From: Chloroflexota bacterium
Lineage (GTDB): Bacteria > Chloroflexota > Dehalococcoidia > Lucifugimonadales > UBA3495
Assembly: GCA_028873965.1 (NCBI GenBank)
Contig: JAPPMU010000041.1
Location: 36,056-100,055 of the forward strand
DNA: 64,000 nucleotides
Reading direction: 5' to 3'
Shown: one piece after another, positions 43,882 through 55,923 of the stretch
Position numbering within the stretch: position 1 is the first letter of the stretch
Layout: each line of letters starts with the position of its first letter
Made by a program: the position numbers and the translations under genes
Notes under the pieces: generated by a model
Told to the model about the DNA's origin: nothing
Database searches by the model: none
Seen by the model: only the letters and a program-made list of their open reading frames with translations

Positions 43882-43953
43882 ATCGTTCTCCGTTGTCTGG
43901 TGGGATCGGGCGTTGTCCCGCTCGCGGGGGATTGCGGTGCGAGGGTGGAGAAT

Positions 43954-44395
43954 GCCGGCCGGCCTGTAAGCCGGGTTCTGTATCCGCCCCCGTCGCGTGG
44001 GCAGGGACAGGACGGTGACCATCTATCTAGCCCCGATGCAGTATAACCCGCATCGCCCCGTGAGACGGGGCAGCGTTGCCGCTGGGGTCAAGCGGCCAAC
44101 CCGGGGACGGGCCGGACACCCATGGTCCCTCTATTTGGCCTTGCTCCAGGTGGGGTTTGGCCGCCGGTGCGTCACCACACGCGGCCGGACGCTCTTACCG
44201 TCCGATTTCACCCTTGCCGGCGCGCCGAAGACGTGCCGGCGGTATGTTTCTGTGCCACTTTCCGTCCCCGACTCGGTTTCCCGCGCCGGAGCCTGGGCGT
44301 TACCCAGCACCCCGTCCGGTGGAGCCCGGACTTTCCTCCCCGAGACAATAGCCATTTCTGACCATCGCTCGCGGCGGCCACCCGGCCGGTCCGGC
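43954..44395 (-). ncRNA. rnpB: RNase P RNA (type A)
   Basis: Minus strand has GAGGAAAGTCCGGGCTCC, AGTGGCACAGAAA, GGTGAAA, GGAGCAAGGCCAAA and ACAGAACCCGGCTTACA; ends pair as P1. Confidence 0.96.
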
Positions 44396-48297: not shown

Positions 48298-48322
48298 GCG
48301 GAGCCGCTCGCGCCTTCCCCCT

Positions 48323-48600
48323 CACGCGTACCCAGTTTCACACGAACTGTCATTGCGAGCGAAGCGCGGCAATCTCGTTACTGGAGGAGCCATTCTTCGT
48401 GTGACGAGATCGCCGCGTCGCTCAGCTCCTCACGGTGACAAACTGGGTACGCGTGAGCGCCTGCCCCGCACGCGTACCCAGTTTCACAAACCCGCCATTG
48501 CGAGCGAAGCGCGGCAATCTCGTTGCTGGAGCAGCCGTTCTTCGTGTGACGAGATCGCCGCGTCGCTCCGCTCCTCGCGATGACAAACTGGGTACGCGTG
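48323..48600. mobile_element. Two tandem ~132-bp MITE-like units with perfect 16-bp TIRs
   Basis: CACGCGTACCCAGTTT ... AAACTGGGTACGCGTG at 48323-48455 and 48469-48600, each enclosing a CATTGCGAG..GCAATCTC / GAGATCGC..TGAC pair. Confidence 0.8.
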
Positions 48601-48636
48601 AGCACCTGTAACTGTTCAGGGTCCGCGGAGAAACAC

Positions 48637-48730
48637 GTCGTTCCTGCGAAAGCAGGAACCCAGAACATCCACGCGCCGGCAATCGCGAGCATAGAAGGAT
48701 TTCCTGGATACCGGCTTCCGCCGGTAAGAC
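48637..48730. repeat. Inverted pair of GTCRTTCCYGCGAAAGCRGGAA-type palindromes
   Basis: 48637-48661 and a degenerate partner at 48706-48730. Confidence 0.75.
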
Positions 48731-48787
48731 GGCTTTGGCGTTAGGCGGCCACCTCAAACGTGAGCAGTTACGAGCGCCTGCCCCACG

Positions 48788-48816
48788 TTGACGCCGTCGC
48801 GGATGCTGGGTATCAT
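48788..48816 (+). promoter_or_regulatory. Sigma70-type promoter of the ABC transporter operon
   Basis: TTGACG (48788-48793), 17 bp spacer, TATCAT (48811-48816). Confidence 0.7.
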
Positions 48817-48826
48817 TCGTCGCCGT

Positions 48827-49011
48827 ATGTGCAGCGCGGGCTCCGGATTCACTTGAACGCCTTGCCGACCACTCCGGGTTGAGTGGTGGGCGGGTGCGTC
48901 ATGCGCCGGGTGAGCAACTAGCCTCCTATTTCGCTGCGTTCGCGTTTCCCGTCTTCCCCAGAATATCAGGGCGTCTGACGACGTCTCCTCACGAATGATG
49001 GTGAAACGCAC
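48827..49011 (+). promoter_or_regulatory. Structured leader with UGA-containing uORF, SECIS-like hairpin and RBS-sequestering stem
   Basis: ATG 48827, TGA 48854-48856, hairpin ACCACTC-CGGGTT-GAGTGGT 48868-48887; 48942-48953 is complementary to 48997-49009. Confidence 0.5.
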
Positions 49012-49905
49012 ATGTTACATAAACCGCTCGCGCGCGCGGTCGCGATCGTTGTTCTGATCTCGGTCCTTCTGGCGCTTGTCGCCTGCGCCGAAGAAGAACT
49101 GCCCGTCCTCTACCTCGGCGGCATCCCCGACCAGGACGTGGCCGTCCTGGAAGCCCGCTTCAACCTTCTCGCCGAGCACGTCAGCGAGGAAACCGGCGTC
49201 CCCGTCCGTTACCTTCCATCCCAGTCCTACGCCGCTCTGGTCACCGGATGGGACAACAACGACGTACAGCTGGCCTGGTACGGTGGCCTGACCGGTGTCC
49301 AGGCACGGCTCGCCGTCCCCGGCTCTGATGCCGTGGCCCAGCGCAGCACCGATGAGAACTTCACGTCGGTGTTCGTCGCCGCACCCGACTCCGGCATATC
49401 CTCGCTGGCCGGCCTGAAAGGACGCACCTTCACCTTCGGCAGCGAAAGTTCAACCTCGGGCAACCTGATGCCTCGTTACTTCCTCGGCCAGGAGGGCATC
49501 GTACCCGAGACCGACTTCAAGAGCGTGGCCTACAGCGGCTCCCACGACGCCACCTGGAAACAGGTCGAAGCCGGAGCGGTCGAGGCCGGCGCCCTCAACG
49601 CCAACGTATGGAAGACCCGCATGGAGCAGGGCGACGTTGACGCCTCCCGGGTCACCGCCTTCTACACCTCCCCCGGCTACGTCGACTACCACTGGGTCGT
49701 CCGGCCGGGCCTGGACGAGATCTACGGCGACGGGTTCACGCAGCGCGTGGTCGATGCCCTCCTCAAGCTGAACGCCGCCAACGGCGGCCGCGATCAGGAA
49801 ATCATGAACGCCTTCCAGGCTGACCGGTTCATTTCCACCACCAATGAAAATTACCTCCCCATCGAAAATATCGCCCGCGACCTCGGCCTCATCTCCGAAC
49901 AGTAG
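49012..49905 (+). CDS. PhnD-like ABC substrate-binding lipoprotein, putative selenate-transporter subfamily
   Basis: Lipobox LVAC; IPDQD, WYGGLTGVQARL, FTFGSESSTSGNLMP, SGSHDAT, as I recall them for that subfamily. Confidence 0.8.
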   Translation: MLHKPLARAVAIVVLISVLLALVACAEEELPVLYLGGIPDQDVAVLEARFNLLAEHVSEETGVPVRYLPSQSYAALVTGWDNNDVQLAWYGGLTGVQARLAVPGSDAVAQRSTDENFTSVFVAAPDSGISSLAGLKGRTFTFGSESSTSGNLMPRYFLGQEGIVPETDFKSVAYSGSHDATWKQVEAGAVEAGALNANVWKTRMEQGDVDASRVTAFYTSPGYVDYHWVVRPGLDEIYGDGFTQRVVDALLKLNAANGGRDQEIMNAFQADRFISTTNENYLPIENIARDLGLISEQ

Positions 49906-50656
49906 CCATCCGGCAATTCTGATCGACGGTGCGGGCAAGACCTACGGCGACGTCGAGGCCGTCCGCCCGATCTCGCTGACCATCCAGCCGGGCGAGACCG
50001 TAGCGCTGCTGGGACCCAGCGGTAGCGGCAAGACCACCCTGCTGTCCATGATTGCCGGCGAGCTGGAGCCGTCGGAAGGATCCATCCGTCTGCGCGGCAG
50101 AAACTTGGCCGACCTTCATCCCGGCCGGGAGCTCTCCCGCGAGGTGGGCATGATCCACCAGCAGTACGACCTCGTCCCCAACCTCTCGTCGTTGCAAAAC
50201 GTGCTCGCCGGACGATTGGGAGACTGGGGCCTGTTCAAATCGGTAATTTCCCTGGTGTGGCCCCAGGACCGGCAGGTGGGCATGACCGCCCTGGACCGAG
50301 TGGGGGTCGGAGACCGCGCCCGGGTTCGGGCCGGCTTTCTCTCCGGCGGCGAGCAGCAACGGGTGGCCGTGGCCCGTCTCCTGGTGCAGGATCCCGCCAT
50401 CATCGTCGCCGACGAACCGGTTTCGTCCCTGGACCCGGCCCGGGCCGAAGAGGTGATGGGCATCCTGAGCGAGTCCGCCCGCCAGGCTGGAAAAACCCTG
50501 GTGGCCACCGTCCATTCCACCGATGTGGCGCGAACCTACTTCGGGCGCCTGATCGGTCTGCGCAACGGCGAACCGGAATTCGACCTGCCTTCCCACCTGG
50601 TCACCGACGACCAGTTCAATGCCCTCTACGCGCTGGAGGGCCTGCGGGATGAATGA
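49844..50656 (+). CDS. PhnC-like ABC ATPase
   Basis: GPSGSGKT, LSGGEQQR, ADEPVSSLD; true start uncertain. Confidence 0.9.
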   Translation: MKITSPSKISPATSASSPNSSHPAILIDGAGKTYGDVEAVRPISLTIQPGETVALLGPSGSGKTTLLSMIAGELEPSEGSIRLRGRNLADLHPGRELSREVGMIHQQYDLVPNLSSLQNVLAGRLGDWGLFKSVISLVWPQDRQVGMTALDRVGVGDRARVRAGFLSGGEQQRVAVARLLVQDPAIIVADEPVSSLDPARAEEVMGILSESARQAGKTLVATVHSTDVARTYFGRLIGLRNGEPEFDLPSHLVTDDQFNALYALEGLRDE

Positions 50657-51458
50657 CCGCGCGCACCAGGGATCCCTGGGAGGGCGTGGCGCGCTGACCG
50701 CAATCTTGCTGATCGCTTTCGCGGTCAGCCTGGTGGGCATCGGATGGGGCGACGGCGTGCTCAACGCCGGCGGTCTCCGCGCCGTCGGGCAGATCCTGGT
50801 GGCCGCCATCCAACCGCAGTTGGACCTGAACGTCCTGTCCATCGGCGCCCGCTCCACCTGGACCACGCTGGCTTACGCCTGGGCCGGCATGACTGTCGCC
50901 CTGGCTATAGGTATCCCGTTGGGTATCCTGGGCTCCGGAACCGTGGTTCGGTCCCCCTGGGCTCGACGGTGGAACATCTCATCGGCGCGCTTTGCTTTGG
51001 CGGTGTTCCGCGCTATCCACGAGCTGGTATGGGCCTGGCTATTCGTCGCGGCGCTCGGCCTGTCTCCTATGGCCGGAGTGCTCGCCCTGGGGCTGCCCTA
51101 CGGCGGCATTCTCGGTCGGATCTACGCCGAGCTGCTGCAGGACGTACCCGATGCTCCCCTACGCGCCCTGCGGAGCGCCGGAGCCTCTGAGTGGCGCGTC
51201 TTCTGGTTCGGTCGGCTCCCCATGGCCCTGCCGGACATGCTCAGCTACACCTTCTACCGCCTGGAATGCGGGATACGGTCGGCGGCCATCCTGAGCTTCG
51301 TGGGTCTCGGCGGCCTCGGTCACAACATCCAGATTTCCCTGCAGGACATCGATTACAGCCGCATGTGGACCTTCGTCTATTTCCTCATCGCGCTGGTACT
51401 CGTCGTTGACCTTTGGAGCTCGCTGGTTCGGCGCCGAGTCGCCATCGAGCAGGGTTAG
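50649..51458 (+). CDS. PhnE-like ABC permease
   Basis: RAIHELVW, YRLECGIRSAAILSFVGLGGLG. Confidence 0.9.
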   Translation: MNDRAHQGSLGGRGALTAILLIAFAVSLVGIGWGDGVLNAGGLRAVGQILVAAIQPQLDLNVLSIGARSTWTTLAYAWAGMTVALAIGIPLGILGSGTVVRSPWARRWNISSARFALAVFRAIHELVWAWLFVAALGLSPMAGVLALGLPYGGILGRIYAELLQDVPDAPLRALRSAGASEWRVFWFGRLPMALPDMLSYTFYRLECGIRSAAILSFVGLGGLGHNIQISLQDIDYSRMWTFVYFLIALVLVVDLWSSLVRRRVAIEQG

Positions 51459-51461
51459 CAG

Positions 51462-52361
51462 ATGGCAGCCCCATACGGACGCGGCGAACCGGTCTCCCGC
51501 GGCGGAGCCACGGCGCCAATCGCTCCGACCCGCCGCATCGGGTTCCTCGCCGCCTCCGCCGCCATCGCCATTGTGATGGGGGTGGCCGCGTGGGTGACCA
51601 TCATCGGCAACGACCACTTCCCTAGCCGGGGCCTGCTCTCCCTCGAAACAGTGACCCGGGCGGCGGACTTTGCCGGCGGGTTGATCGGCACGAAATCTGC
51701 ATCCACTCCCGCTTTCTACCAGCCGGCCGAATGGGCCGAGAAAGCGCGTTTGGCCGGCGAAACCCTGGCCATGAGCGTGGCCGCCGCCGGCCTGGCCGCC
51801 CTGGGAGCCCTGGCGCTGTTCATGTTCGGCGCGCGCAACGTGATGATGGGCAGCCTCGCGCCCTACCGGTCGCCCTTCTGGACGGCGCCTTTCTTCCTGA
51901 TCCGCGCGGTGTTCACCGTGAGCCGCGCCGTGCCGGAACTGGTCTGGGCCATGATCCTGGTGTTCGTCTTCACCCAGGGAACCCTGCCCGGCGTAATCGC
52001 CCTCGCCATCCACAACGGCGGCATCCTGGGCAAGCTGGGCTCCGAAATCGTAGAGGGACTCGACACGCGCCCGATGCGAGCACTGCGGTCCACCGGCGCC
52101 GGCCGGATGCAGGTGCTGCTCTACGGCGTGCTCCCCGAGGCCCTGCCCAAGTTCATCACGTACCTGTTCTATCGTTGGGAGGTGATCATCCGCACCACCA
52201 TCGTGGTCGGATTCGTCGCCGCCGGCGGCCTCGGCACCGAGTTCCGCCTGGCCATGAGCCACTTCAAATTCACCGAAGTGTCGCTCATACTGTTCTGGTA
52301 CCTGGTCCTCGTCCTGTTCGTGGACCTCGTCTCCGCACAGATGAGGCGGCTCGCCAACTGA
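51462..52361 (+). CDS. PhnE-like ABC permease
   Basis: RAVPELVW, YRWEVIIRTTIVVGFVAAGGLG. Confidence 0.9.
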   Translation: MAAPYGRGEPVSRGGATAPIAPTRRIGFLAASAAIAIVMGVAAWVTIIGNDHFPSRGLLSLETVTRAADFAGGLIGTKSASTPAFYQPAEWAEKARLAGETLAMSVAAAGLAALGALALFMFGARNVMMGSLAPYRSPFWTAPFFLIRAVFTVSRAVPELVWAMILVFVFTQGTLPGVIALAIHNGGILGKLGSEIVEGLDTRPMRALRSTGAGRMQVLLYGVLPEALPKFITYLFYRWEVIIRTTIVVGFVAAGGLGTEFRLAMSHFKFTEVSLILFWYLVLVLFVDLVSAQMRRLAN

Positions 52362-55849: not shown

Positions 55850-55923
55850 TGCCCCGTGGTGTAGCGGTAGCACGTCAGCCTTTGGAGCTGTAAGCCCTGG
55901 TTCGAACCCAGGCGGGGCAGCCA
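55850..55923 (+). tRNA. tRNA-Gln(TTG)
   Basis: Acceptor TGCCCCG/CGGGGCA, anticodon loop CTTTGGA, GGTTCGAACCC, encoded CCA; extended -10 TGCTATAAT at 55831-55839. Confidence 0.96.

What the first reader, a model, noticed from the sequence alone, without database searches (positions are those of the whole stretch)
48788..49014. Candidate selenocysteine-sensing leader-peptide attenuator upstream of a putative selenium-oxyanion ABC transporter
Seen: promoter TTGACG-17-TATCAT; ATG 10 nt after the -10 box opens a uORF MCSAGSGFT-TGA(48854). Exactly 11 nt after the TGA begins hairpin ACCACTC/CGGGTT/GAGTGGT, whose stem extends back toward the UGA (CTTGCC/GGCGGG, ACGC/GCGT). Read-through gives a 28-aa peptide ending at a second TGA (48911). 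GCGTTTC-CCGTC (48942-48953) can pair with GATGG-T-GAAACGC (48997-49009), covering the transporter's likely RBS. The uORF start region has alternative partners (GCAGCG/CGCTGC; ATGTGC/GCACAT over the transporter start codon). Known: bacterial SECIS elements lie just 3' of the UGA (11-nt spacing in E. coli fdhF) with a G-containing apical loop, and the binding protein looks like the putative selenate-transporter subfamily of PhnD. Inference: ribosome behaviour at the UGA, or SelB binding, reports Sec-tRNA supply and switches uptake. I know of no described Sec leader-peptide attenuator for Se uptake.
Basis: partly seen in the sequence, partly recalled or inferred. Interest (0 to 1): 0.85.

Follow-up and report, generated by a model that had tools for sequence, protein, structure and literature searches.

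The report
Selenocysteine-codon leader before selenium transporter
A tiny upstream reading frame ending in Gly-Phe-Thr plus a UGA codon, followed by a hairpin that looks like a selenocysteine-insertion signal, is conserved in front of a putative selenium-uptake operon in many Dehalococcoidia and probably couples that operon to the cell's selenocysteine supply.

Summary
The finding also passes each refutation test that I could run. The genome has selA, selB, selD (itself with an in-frame TGA) and tRNA-Sec. Rfam finds nothing in the leader. The binding protein scores 324.6 bits on TIGR04553 (cut-off 250).

Forty distinct orthologous leaders from several Dehalococcoidia lineages keep three things:
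- a sigma-70-like promoter;
- an in-frame start 0-15 nt after the -10 box (39 of 40);
- a 7-23 codon uORF ending in [G/S]-F-T-TGA. TGA is present in 40 of 40, and the last three sense codons vary almost only at wobble positions.

In 29 of 37 leaders the hairpin CCACUC-CGGGNN-GAGUGG starts 14-16 nt from the U of UGA. Its spacing, stem length and G-rich loop match genuine SECIS elements of the same genomes.

A model of the element hits once per genome, always upstream of this transporter. Orthologous operons without it usually carry a divergent selenium-type LysR gene instead. Two metagenome contigs place the same module before an OsmC-like/acyl-CoA-dehydrogenase pair.

How the signal reaches the transporter gene is unresolved. 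Equilibrium folding, duplex tests and covariation do not support the proposed switch. A minority class has no hairpin like the genuine SECIS elements at the usual spacing. The substrate is unproven, because the closest solved homologues bind phosphite.

The parts
48788..48816 (+). Sigma-70-like promoter TTGACG-17-TATCAT
   Evidence: It is the only such site in 48300-49100 (10 of 12 matches; 0.1 expected). A comparable promoter lies at the same place in 39 of 40 distinct leaders.
48827..48856 (+). uORF MCSAGSGFT plus TGA. It is leaderless or nearly so, because the ATG lies 10 nt after the -10 box.
   Evidence: Across 40 distinct leaders the last three sense codons vary at positions 3, 6 and 9, plus one G-to-A change at position 1. 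TGA is present in 40 of 40.
48854..48856 (+). The UGA codon, a candidate Sec codon and sensing point
   Evidence: It is invariant in 40 of 40 leaders. No Cys-codon, TAA or TAG variant was found in 77 upstream regions.
48861..48894 (+). SECIS-like hairpin: lower stem CUUGCC/GGCGGG, a 1x1 G.G internal loop, upper stem ACCACUC/GAGUGGU (48868-48874 / 48881-48887) and loop CGGGUU (48875-48880)
   Evidence: CCACUC starts 14-16 nt from the U of UGA in 29 of 37 leaders. The loop resembles loops of genuine SECIS elements.
48893..48907 (+). Second small hairpin GGUGC-N5-GCGCC, overlapping the lower stem by 2 nt
   Evidence: The stems are conserved and the loop is variable in alignments A1 and A3. 80% of cells are paired. 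Its role is unknown.
48857..48913 (+). Read-through extension: 18 codons to the second TGA at 48911-48913
   Evidence: Neither the frame nor the length is conserved. The next stop lies 6 to 141 nt away in relatives, and a 1-nt indel shifts the frame between L066 and L067.
48914..48996 (+). C/U-rich, G-poor spacer with a small hairpin at 48969-48986
   Evidence: From UGA+45 to 15 nt before the transporter start the composition is C 0.34 and G 0.23 here. The medians over 37 leaders are C 0.37 and G 0.26. No intrinsic terminator lies within the leader.
48942..49009 (+). SD-sequestering helix: GCGUUUCCCGUC (48942-48953) pairs with GAUGGUGAAACGC (48997-49009)
   Evidence: It is part of the minimum-energy fold. 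P(unpaired) of the SD window is 0.09. The 80%-identity subgroup has the compensated version GCGUUCUCCGUC/GACGGAGACGC.
49012..49905 (+). Substrate-binding protein of the ABC importer (TIGR04553, 'putative selenate ABC transporter substrate-binding protein')
   Evidence: 324.6 bits against a cut-off of 250, and Pfam PF12974. The closest solved structures are the PhnD1 proteins 7s6g and 5lq5.
49844..50656 (+). PhnC-like ATPase ORF. The true start is probably later than 49844.
   Evidence: TIGR02315 scores 224 bits, below its cut-off of 266. PF00005 matches.
50619..52361 (+). Two PhnE-like permease genes (50619-51458 and 51462-52361)
   Evidence: TIGR01097 scores 185 bits for each, below its cut-off of 216.7. 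PF00528 matches.

Best explanation
This is the 5' leader of a TIGR04553-type ABC importer operon. It is built around a very short, leaderless or nearly leaderless uORF that ends in Gly-Phe-Thr-UGA. A bacterial-SECIS-like hairpin sits 11-13 nt after the UGA.

I read it as a cis-acting sensor of selenocysteine-decoding capacity (Sec-tRNASec and SelB). The first ribosome reaches the UGA within 7-23 codons. Either SelB with Sec-tRNASec, docked on the hairpin, decodes the UGA and the ribosome moves on, or the ribosome waits or terminates there. The conserved Gly-Phe-Thr nascent end may slow RF2.

The fate of that ribosome would then decide how the G-rich 3' half of the hairpin and the C-rich distal leader fold, or whether Rho gets access. 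That in turn would decide whether the transporter's sequestered Shine-Dalgarno site becomes available.

Shown by comparison: the uORF, the UGA, the spacing and the hairpin are conserved. The uORF evolves like coding sequence. The element is specific to this operon. Sec decoding exists in these genomes.

Inferred: that Sec is inserted, that SelB binds, the direction of regulation (I guess ON when Sec is scarce), and the output step.
For: (1) Sec machinery is present.
- selB scores 356.9 bits and selA 542.2 bits. selD scores 377.6 bits and has one in-frame TGA.
- aragorn finds a tRNA-SeC.
- 5 of 9 Redoxin-family matches in this genome carry one in-frame TGA.
- selD carries a TGA in 5 of 5 leader-bearing genomes of other lineages.

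(2) The leader is conserved.
- 16 of 30 loci from relatives and 36 of 80 loci from named genomes carry the motif. Together they give 40 distinct leaders.
- TGA is present in 40 of 40.
- GGN TTY ACY varies at wobble positions only, apart from one AGC.
- 39 of 40 have a promoter-like site ending 0-15 nt before an in-frame start.

(3) The hairpin is conserved and well placed.
- CCACUC-CGGG(N2-3)-GAGUGG begins 14-16 nt from the U of UGA in 29 of 37 leaders, while the spacer sequence varies.
- 91.3% of cells are paired, against 33-54% when partners are slid.
- One AU-to-GC compensated pair occurs in 4 sequences.

(4) It resembles genuine SECIS elements.
- Stems of 5-9 bp start 7-20 nt after the UGA and carry G-rich loops (AGUUG, AGUCG, GGAGU, GGC, GGG, CGGGU, UCGGGAA, GGUCU). 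This holds in the selD and Redoxin selenoprotein genes of this genome and five others.
- The selD elements of three leader-bearing genomes share UCCGGG with the leader hairpin at 12-13 nt spacing.

(5) It is specific to this operon.
- Covariance model R1 hits 16 of 61 related genomes, once each, always about 260 nt upstream of the TIGR04553 gene.

(6) Other regulators take its place elsewhere.
- Of 80 orthologous loci, 36 have the uORF and no LysR gene, and 24 have an adjacent LysR gene (23 of them divergent) and no uORF.
- Two of those LysR proteins score 242 and 229 bits on NF040786, the selenium-metabolism LysR model with a cut-off of 250.

(7) It is modular.
- 2 of the 8 complete copies on metagenome contigs precede an OsmC-like gene plus an Rv1679-family acyl-CoA dehydrogenase gene instead.
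Against: - No experiment or read-level data show translation of the uORF, Sec insertion, SelB binding or a selenium response.
- The only RNA run holds contigs of relatives and gives no 5' ends.
- The upper stem is invariant in 6 of 7 pairs, and the covariation score is not above shuffles (184 of 500 shuffles reach it). The structure therefore rests on conservation, not covariation.
- With a ribosome masked at the UGA or at the next stop, equilibrium folding leaves the SD as sequestered as in the free RNA. In the own-type leaders P(unpaired) is 0.09 in all three states.
- The G-rich strand is no more complementary to the distal leader than shuffled versions of it are (z about 0).
- A minority class has the UGA inside a longer helix. 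It comprises L039, L101, L103, L104, L118, L035 and L124. At the right spacing it has at most a 3-4 bp CCAC...GUGG hairpin (read by eye), and often a second UGA two codons later. Sec insertion is doubtful in that class.
- No orthologue has a Cys codon in place of the UGA, although such replacements are common in true selenoprotein families.
- Genuine selenoproteins in the genome do not have GFT directly before Sec.
- selB is nearly universal in the order (58 of 61 genomes), so its co-occurrence with the leader does not discriminate.
- The closest characterised homologues of the binding protein prefer phosphite.
Confidence: 0.55

Rival explanations
1. This is a termination-arrest leader peptide that does not involve Sec. 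The UGA is only an RF2-specific stop. The conserved Gly-Phe-Thr end makes the ribosome pause at termination, as TnaC does, perhaps in response to a small molecule or to translation status. The hairpin would be a structural part of the RNA switch or a pause element, not a SelB site.
For: - Only the last three residues and the UGA are universal. The N-terminal part of the peptide and everything after the UGA vary.
- The minority class lacks a convincing SECIS and has tandem UGA-NNN-UGA.
- GFT is not found directly before Sec in genuine selenoproteins.
- Rho is encoded in the genome (536.6 bits), and the distal leader is C-rich and G-poor.
- TnaC shows that RF2 can be blocked at a UGA by a nascent peptide (PMC8450073, abstract in a search listing).
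Against: - The loop sequence CGGG and the stem sequence are conserved far beyond what a structural hairpin needs.
- The hairpin matches genuine SECIS elements in spacing and loop type.
- The regulated operon is annotated as a selenium importer, and elsewhere it is paired with a selenium-type LysR gene.
- The region just after the UGA is G-rich (0.40-0.45 in most leaders), not rut-like.
Confidence: 0.2
2. This is a SelB operator like the SECIS-like element in the E. coli selAB 5' UTR. SelB, with or without Sec-tRNASec, would bind the hairpin and change leader folding or stability. The uORF would only deliver ribosomes or be incidental.
For: - The hairpin is SECIS-like.
- There is a precedent: SelB with GTP and Sec-tRNASec binds a SECIS-like element in the selAB 5' UTR and represses expression (passage in PMC13449736).
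Against: - In E. coli the element lies 3 nt from the SD (the same passage). Here it lies about 110 nt upstream of the SD.
- The strict conservation of the in-frame UGA, of the 14-16 nt offset from the UGA and of the coding pattern of the uORF would have no explanation.
Confidence: 0.1
3. This is a small functional selenopeptide gene (…GFT-Sec-…) co-transcribed with the transporter, for example a selenium carrier, and not a regulatory leader.
For: - The uORF evolves like coding sequence.
- A SECIS-like hairpin follows the UGA.
- In some lineages the product would end one residue after Sec (…GFT-U-A or …GFT-U-G).
Against: - After the UGA, the frame, length and sequence are not conserved. The next stop lies 6 to 141 nt away, and a 1-nt indel shifts the frame between close relatives.
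- The N-terminal part is also variable, at 7 to 23 codons.
- The read-through peptide matches no NCBIfam family.
Confidence: 0.05
4. This is a purely RNA-based riboswitch or other structured leader, and the apparent uORF is a by-product.
For: The leader is long (about 185 nt) and strongly structured, and its blocks are conserved.
Against: - Variation in the nine bases before the TGA is confined to the third positions of the three codons, with one exception.
- An in-frame start sits right after the -10 box in 39 of 40 leaders, although the uORF length varies.
- No Rfam family matches.
Confidence: 0.05

Closest known systems
Bacterial SECIS elements inside selenoprotein genes (for example selD and Redoxin-family genes of these same genomes)
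   Same: An in-frame UGA is followed after about 11-13 nt by a 6-7 bp stem with a G-rich apical loop. The UGA itself sits at the base of a longer helix.
   Different: - It lies in a 10-codon uORF of a 5' leader, not in an enzyme gene.
- The sequence after the UGA is not kept in frame.
- No Cys-codon orthologues exist.
SECIS-like element in the 5' UTR of the E. coli selAB mRNA. I saw it only as a passage in PMC13449736. The original paper was not read.
   Same: A SECIS-type hairpin in a leader is used to report Sec-tRNASec and SelB status and to control a selenium-related operon.
   Different: - The E. coli element lies 3 nt from the SD, has no decoded UGA before it, and controls Sec synthesis genes.
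- Here the hairpin follows a UGA in a translated uORF, lies about 110 nt from the SD, and controls an importer.
Amino-acid leader-peptide attenuators (trp and his type). The trp example appears in the introduction passage of PMC3892789. The rest is recalled.
   Same: A short ORF in the leader contains the codon for the amino acid whose supply is to be sensed. The position of the ribosome would set the folding of the leader.
   Different: - The sensed codon is a recoded stop that needs SelB and a SECIS.
- No intrinsic terminator is present.
- Alternative pairings are not supported.
- The mRNA appears to be leaderless.
TnaC arrest peptide of the tna operon (abstracts of PMC8450073 and related papers in the listing)
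   Same: A leader peptide has a conserved C-terminal end immediately before a UGA. RF2 action at that UGA is the regulated step. Rho is available.
   Different: - TnaC needs conserved residues along 24 aa and free tryptophan.
- Here only three residues are conserved.
- A SECIS-like hairpin follows.
- The sequence next to the stop is G-rich, not rut-like.
Selenium control of fdhF(Sec) transcription by translational coupling in Treponema primitia (PMC3892789, passages)
   Same: A ribosome that stalls or terminates at a Sec UGA when selenium is lacking changes expression downstream. The SECIS is proposed to take part in this.
   Different: That effect occurs inside the selenoprotein gene itself and lowers its own transcript. 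Here a dedicated uORF would govern separate downstream genes.
LysR_Se / HrsM selenium-associated LysR regulators (PMC5322559, passages; NCBIfam NF040786)
   Same: It appears to do the same job for the same operon. 24 of 80 orthologous loci have an adjacent LysR of this type instead of the uORF, 23 of them divergent.
   Different: It is a protein transcription factor, not a cis-acting translated leader.

Membership tests
Bacterial SECIS element | An in-frame UGA within a translated reading frame | tested here: met
   The uORF runs 48827-48856. TGA is present in 40 of 40 distinct leaders, with wobble-only variation of the three preceding codons and an in-frame start after the -10 box in 39 of 40. 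Translation itself is inferred.
Bacterial SECIS element | A hairpin starting roughly 11 nt downstream of the UGA, with a G-containing apical loop | tested here: met
   The spacer is 11 nt here, and CCACUC starts at offset 14-16 in 29 of 37 leaders. The loop is CGGGUU. Genuine elements of this and five related genomes have stems starting 7-20 nt after the UGA, with loops AGUUG, AGUCG, GGC, GGG, CGGGU, UCGGGAA and GGUCU. The 11-nt figure for E. coli is recalled.
Bacterial SECIS element | The host encodes selA, selB, selC and selD | tested here: met
   selB is over its cut-off in 58 of 61 related genomes. selD has a TGA in 5 of 5 other leader-bearing genomes.
Bacterial SECIS element | It binds SelB and directs Sec insertion | not testable with these tools
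   This needs binding assays, reporters or mass spectrometry.
Bacterial SECIS element | It is present in all members of this leader family | tested here: not met
   Seven leaders (L039, L101, L103, L104, L118, L035, L124) have at most a 3-4 bp CCAC...GUGG hairpin or none at the usual spacing, by my reading of the printed sequences.
Classical leader-peptide transcription attenuator (trp/his type) | A short leader ORF carrying the regulatory codon(s) | tested here: met
   The uORF has 7-23 codons and one UGA. Most of the minority class have UGA-NNN-UGA.
Classical leader-peptide transcription attenuator (trp/his type) | An intrinsic terminator with a competing antiterminator | tested here: not met
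   No terminator-like site lies between 48857 and 49011. Ribosome-mask folding shows no switch. Duplex energies are no better than those of shuffled strands.
E. coli selAB-type SECIS-like operator | A SECIS-like hairpin immediately (3 nt) upstream of the SD of the regulated gene, with no decoded UGA | tested here: not met
   The hairpin ends at 48894 and the SD region starts at about 49000. A conserved in-frame UGA precedes the hairpin. The E. coli feature comes from a passage in PMC13449736.
TnaC-like termination-arrest peptide | Conserved nascent-chain residues ending directly at a UGA stop | tested here: met
   [G/S]-F-T-UGA is present in 40 of 40 leaders. Only three residues are conserved.
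TnaC-like termination-arrest peptide | A Rho-dependent terminator or rut site next to the stop codon, masked by the stalled ribosome | tested here: inconclusive
   Rho is present. The 42 nt after the UGA are G-rich (0.31-0.48). C-rich, G-poor sequence starts further downstream.
Any Rfam family | A covariance-model match at or near the gathering score | tested here: not met
   The leader has only weak miRNA or snoRNA chance hits (E of 1.8 or more).
TIGR04553 (putative selenate ABC transporter substrate-binding protein), for the downstream gene | An HMM score above the curated cut-off | tested here: met
   324.6 bits against 250. The substrate assignment is a 'hypothetical equivalog' annotation, not an experiment.

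The most novel reading that the evidence does not exclude
The Gly-Phe-Thr-UGA uORF with its SECIS hairpin is a portable sensor of selenocysteine starvation. A ribosome is held at the UGA by the nascent peptide and released only by SelB with Sec-tRNASec.

The sensor would define a selenium-starvation regulon in Dehalococcoidia/SAR202. That regulon would include the ABC importer and, elsewhere, an OsmC-like/Rv1679-type acyl-CoA dehydrogenase pair.

It would also give independent evidence that the TIGR04553/PhnD1 family imports a selenium oxyanion such as selenite, whose three oxygens recall phosphite. This family would include the abundant picocyanobacterial PhnD1, which binds phosphite that the cells cannot use.
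Probability: 0.25. Interest if true: 0.9.

Novelty: new variant of a known kind. Interest (0 to 1): 0.8.

Why it matters
- **A new sensing principle.** Leader peptides are known to sense standard amino acids through ordinary codons. A leader that uses the recoded stop codon, a SECIS and probably SelB to sense the 21st amino acid would extend that principle. It would be the first cis-acting selenium-status sensor for uptake genes.
- **No description found in print.** None of my nine answered literature searches turned up such an element. These searches cover only the held open-access library. [quoted passage not shown]
- **A handle on selenium uptake.** If the element is real, it marks which genes a widespread marine and subsurface lineage treats as selenium-acquisition genes.
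- **The PhnD1 question.** It offers a testable explanation for picocyanobacterial PhnD1, which binds phosphite in organisms that cannot use it (PMC10284923). Those organisms do carry selD and ybbB (PMC1273633).
- **A natural test system.** It provides a compact setting in which to study the competition between RF2 and SelB at a UGA.

Tried and rejected
- **Rfam.** At gathering and at permissive thresholds there is nothing in the leader.
- **NCBIfam on the 28-aa read-through peptide.** No family matches.
- **Genome-wide scan for a TGA plus a GGG-loop hairpin in long open frames.** It gave 129 candidates, mostly noise from non-coding frames of a 63% G+C genome. Only selD and one Redoxin gene were recognisable. 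I replaced it with family searches. The PF00384 matches carry no TGA.
- **Equilibrium folding of 37 leaders with a ribosome mask at the UGA or at the next stop.** The SD does not open consistently.
- **RNAduplex of the G-rich strand against the distal leader.** The energy is no better than for shuffled strands. In the own-type leaders the best target often overlaps the anti-SD strand, but this is mostly a composition effect among related sequences.
- **Covariation count on the hairpin.** The structure is conserved, but the covariation score is not above shuffles.
They are not compensated or kept in alignment A1.
- **Intrinsic terminator.** None lies within the leader.
- **Public RNA data.** One metatranscriptomic run holds a small share of the words. 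When laid, it gave contigs of relatives (90-95% alike) over 48786-48907 and 48977-49338. One contig extends upstream of the promoter. There are no 5' ends, and DNA carry-over is not excluded, so it is no evidence either way.
- **The search for homologous proteins.** It listed only relatives of 58% identity or more. It therefore could not show whether picocyanobacterial PhnD1 passes the TIGR04553 cut-off.
- **Co-occurrence of the leader with selB.** It is uninformative, because selB is nearly universal in the order.
- **A second genomic match to GGNTTYACYTGA on contig C3.** It has no in-frame start and I treat it as chance.
- **The metagenome pattern scan.** 19 of the 27 contigs lack the second arm of the hairpin and are chance or unrelated matches.
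- **Supplementary files of papers.** I did not open any. Those of PMC10284923 (ligand screen) and PMC5322559 may bear on the substrate question.
Full report
**Observation.**
- The promoter is TTGACG (48788-48793), a 17-nt spacer and TATCAT (48811-48816).
- An ATG at 48827, 10 nt after the -10 box, opens MCSAGSGFT and ends in TGA (48854-48856).
- Eleven nt later comes the hairpin ACCACUC/CGGGUU/GAGUGGU (48868-48887). It is extended by CUUGCC/GGCGGG.
- A second in-frame TGA lies at 48911-48913.
- GCGUUUCCCGUC (48942-48953) is complementary to GAUGGUGAAACGC (48997-49009), just before the ATG at 49012.

The promoter is the only sigma-70-like site in 48300-49100 (10 of 12 matches; 0.1 expected). 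The stretch 48854-48905 folds at -30.1 kcal/mol, and none of 200 shuffles folds as well (z -4.35). Rfam has no match in the leader.

**Context.** The gene at 49012-49905 scores 324.6 bits on TIGR04553, 'putative selenate ABC transporter substrate-binding protein' (cut-off 250). A PhnC-like ATPase and two PhnE-like permeases follow it.

Record titles of close relatives name Dehalococcoidia and a SAR202 cluster bacterium.

The genome encodes the Sec machinery:
- selB at 356.9 bits and selA at 542.2 bits;
- selD at 377.6 bits with one in-frame TGA;
- a tRNA-SeC;
- five Redoxin-family genes with one in-frame TGA each, out of 9 matches.

**Conservation and coding signal.** TIGR04553 is over its cut-off in 33 of 61 related genomes.
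- Of the 30 loci fetched from those genomes, 16 carry a uORF ending in GFT-TGA. These are the 14 closest orthologues (79-100% protein identity, own locus included) and two from other families.
- A scan of named genomes gave 80 more loci, and 36 carry the motif.
- The 52 motif-bearing loci collapse to 40 distinct leaders.

Across those 40 leaders:
- the stop is TGA in 40 of 40;
- the nine bases before it are GGN TTY ACY, with variation at positions 3, 6 and 9 only, apart from one AGC (Ser) for Gly;
- the rest of the peptide varies in sequence and in length (7-23 codons);
- in 39 of 40, a promoter-like site (8-10 of 12 matches) ends 0-15 nt before an in-frame ATG or GTG.

This is the pattern of a translated, leaderless or nearly leaderless reading frame. 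Only the last three residues and the stop are under selection. No upstream region has GFT followed by a Cys codon, TAA or TAG. Of 41 occurrences of the nine-base word, 36 are followed by TGA, and the other five are not leaders.

After the UGA neither the frame nor the length is kept. The next stop lies 6 to 141 nt away, and L066 and L067 differ by a 1-nt indel. The read-through product is therefore unlikely to matter.

**The hairpin.** In 29 of 37 leaders CCACUC begins 14-16 nt from the U of UGA. The spacer sequence differs between lineages.

On the 25-sequence alignment A3:
- 91.3% of cells form pairs, against 33-54% when the partners are slid;
- six of the seven upper-stem pairs never vary;
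- one pair switches AU to GC in four sequences;
- the covariation score is not above shuffles (184 of 500 shuffles reach it).

The stem and the loop start CGGG are thus conserved as sequence. That fits a binding site better than a plain structural hairpin, and it also means that covariation does not prove the fold.

I compared the hairpin with genuine SECIS elements.
- In this genome, selD has GGACCUG-GGC-CAGGUCC 20 nt after its UGA.
- Four Redoxin selenoprotein genes of this genome have 6-7 bp stems starting 7-13 nt after the UGA. Their loops are GGAGU, AGUUG, AGUCG and AGUUG.
- The selD genes of three other leader-bearing genomes have GGUCC-GGG-GGACC or GGUC-CGGGU-GACC 12-13 nt after the UGA. 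They share UCCGGG with the leader hairpin.
- Redoxin selenoprotein genes of five other genomes have 5-9 bp stems starting 13-19 nt after the UGA. Their loops are GUG, GGC, UCGGGAA, GGGUC, GGUU and GGUCU.

The leader hairpin has an 11-13 nt spacer, a 6-7 bp stem and loops CGGGUU, CGGGUC, CGGGCU or CGGGAAC. It falls inside this range.

A further group (L105, L115, L116) has a different two-tier hairpin, AGAGGC-GGAGGGU-GCCUCU, 13-14 nt after the UGA. Its outer stem shows compensated changes (read by eye).

**Specificity and alternatives.** A covariance model of the uORF end plus the hairpin (R1) hits 16 of 61 related genomes. Each has a single hit, about 260 nt upstream of the TIGR04553 gene. In one of these genomes the gene is broken into two pieces.

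The 80 loci from named genomes divide as follows:
- 36 have the uORF and no adjacent LysR gene;
- 23 have a divergent LysR gene and no uORF;
- one has a co-oriented LysR gene;
- 20 have neither, and three of these lack upstream sequence.

These loci are related, so the exclusivity is not a statistical test. Two of the LysR proteins score 242.4 and 228.7 bits on NF040786, 'selenium metabolism-associated LysR' (cut-off 250). That is far above any other LysR model. A selenium-linked LysR subfamily has been described (PMC5322559, passages).

A metagenome scan with a pattern for the UGA and the first arm found 27 contigs, and eight of them have the complete hairpin. Six of the eight precede the binding-protein gene. 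Two (L179, L198) precede an OsmC-like gene (PF02566) and an Rv1679-family acyl-CoA dehydrogenase (NF049984, about 310 bits on truncated ORFs). One of the OsmC-like proteins has a weak hit to NF041052, 'OsmC-related (seleno)protein' (E 9e-4).

The window's binding protein also gives a weak hit to the Rv1680 SBP-like family. The module is therefore portable.

**Mechanism.** The input side is reasonably constrained: a ribosome reaches a UGA that is followed by a SECIS-like hairpin. The output side is not.
- No intrinsic terminator lies in the leader.
- In the own-type leaders the SD is buried in a helix. That helix is kept, with compensatory changes, in the 80%-identity subgroup.
- Masking a ribosome at the UGA or at the next stop leaves P(unpaired) of the SD at 0.09.
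- Other lineages bury the SD differently.
- The G-rich 3' strand of the hairpin can pair with the C-rich anti-SD strand, but no better than shuffled versions of it can.
- The distal leader is C-rich and G-poor (median C 0.37, G 0.26), and Rho is encoded. Rho-dependent or kinetic, co-transcriptional control therefore remains possible. I could not test either.

The conserved Gly-Phe-Thr does not occur directly before Sec in genuine selenoproteins here. My inference is that it tunes the competition between RF2 and SelB at this UGA, for instance by slowing release. TnaC is the precedent for a nascent peptide that blocks RF2 at a UGA (PMC8450073, abstract in the listing).

**Exceptions.** Seven leaders have the UGA enclosed in a longer helix that involves uORF codons: L039, L101, L103, L104, L118, L035 and L124. 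At a shorter spacing they have at most a 3-4 bp CCAC...GUGG hairpin with a CGGG-containing loop (my reading by eye). Six of the seven have UGA-NNN-UGA. Sec insertion is doubtful there. This keeps alive the rival reading that GFT-UGA is a termination-arrest device in which the SECIS is an addition.

**Substrate.** The closest solved structures are the picocyanobacterial PhnD1 proteins. 7s6g/7zck score 236 bits and 5lq5/5lq8 score 224 bits, both over nearly the full length. These proteins bind phosphite better than phosphate or methylphosphonate. The strains cannot grow on phosphite, and expression does not follow phosphate levels (PMC10284923, abstract and passages). The word 'selen' does not occur in that paper's main text.

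Prochlorococcus and Synechococcus carry selD and ybbB (PMC1273633, passages). The selenium assignment of this family therefore rests on annotation and on two contexts found here: the Sec-type leader and the selenium-type LysR gene. I did not test whether PhnD1 passes the TIGR04553 cut-off.

**Known systems and novelty.** The nearest known systems are these.
- The SECIS-like operator of E. coli selAB (passage in PMC13449736).
- Amino-acid leader-peptide attenuators.
- TnaC.
- The translation-coupled selenium control of fdhF(Sec) in Treponema primitia. Its authors say that an attenuation mechanism based on a rare amino acid had not been reported in nature (PMC3892789, passages).

Nine answered searches of the held library found no description of a Sec-codon leader upstream of an uptake operon. 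This does not cover subscription journals.

**Verdict.**
- The element is real, conserved, translated-looking and specific (about 0.9).
- That it senses Sec decoding is the best-supported reading (0.55).
- The output mechanism and the direction of regulation are inferred only.
- I file it as a new variant of known kinds (leader-peptide sensing and SECIS-based regulation), with high interest.

Noticed in passing
window 48321-48602: Four copies of an 18-23 nt element (core GGGTACGCGTGAG) lie in alternating orientation between the TPP-enzyme gene and the promoter. The core occurs 73 times in the genome. It also turns up just upstream of the promoters of several relatives' loci and in an RNA-library contig. 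It looks like a REP-like dispersed palindromic repeat.
   Followed up: partly
window 43951-44394 (-) and 55850-55920 (+): There is a bacterial RNase P RNA class A (211 bits) and a tRNA gene.
   Followed up: no
G000:C10:54762-55679 (-); G000 contigs C13, C33, C43, C54: SelD is itself a selenoprotein (…CAG-U-AAKL). Five Redoxin-family genes carry one in-frame TGA each at CxxC-type or peroxiredoxin-type active sites. The selenoproteome appears rich in thiol oxidoreductases.
   Followed up: partly
G009:C1:2543641-2544689 (-): One relative keeps the leader (81.3 bits on model R1), but its binding-protein gene is split into two pieces with TGA and TAG stops inside. It may be a decaying operon.
   Followed up: no
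L179 and L198 (metagenome contigs): The same GFT-UGA plus CCACUC-CGGG-GAGUGG module (uORFs MYPHLHSLRRGFT and MNCPRRGFT) precedes an OsmC-like gene and an Rv1679-family acyl-CoA dehydrogenase, not the transporter. The window's binding protein also weakly hits the Rv1680 SBP-like family. This hints at a functional link between these families.
   Followed up: partly
L077:430-1410 (-): In a lineage that uses the LysR gene instead of the uORF, the gene next to the LysR gene is an EgtD-type L-histidine N-alpha-methyltransferase (TIGR03438, 319.7 bits). From memory, hercynine is also the precursor of selenoneine. I did not follow this up.
   Followed up: no
L026, L031, L037, L038, L040-L045 (same genus, about 47-50% identical binding protein; L017 and L046 of this clade differ): A second TIGR04553-type clade in the same genus has no uORF. 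It has a short leader behind a promoter region with the repeated words GTTGAC...GTTGATACTATC, and in several cases an adjacent tRNA gene on the opposite strand. It is probably controlled differently.
   Followed up: no
window 49012-49905: The closest solved homologues are picocyanobacterial PhnD1 proteins, whose physiological substrate is debated. Selenite was not among the words found in that paper's main text.
   Followed up: partly
window 49844-49905: The longest ORF of the ATPase gene overlaps the end of the binding-protein gene by 62 nt. The HMM match starts at residue 27, so the real start is probably later.
   Followed up: no
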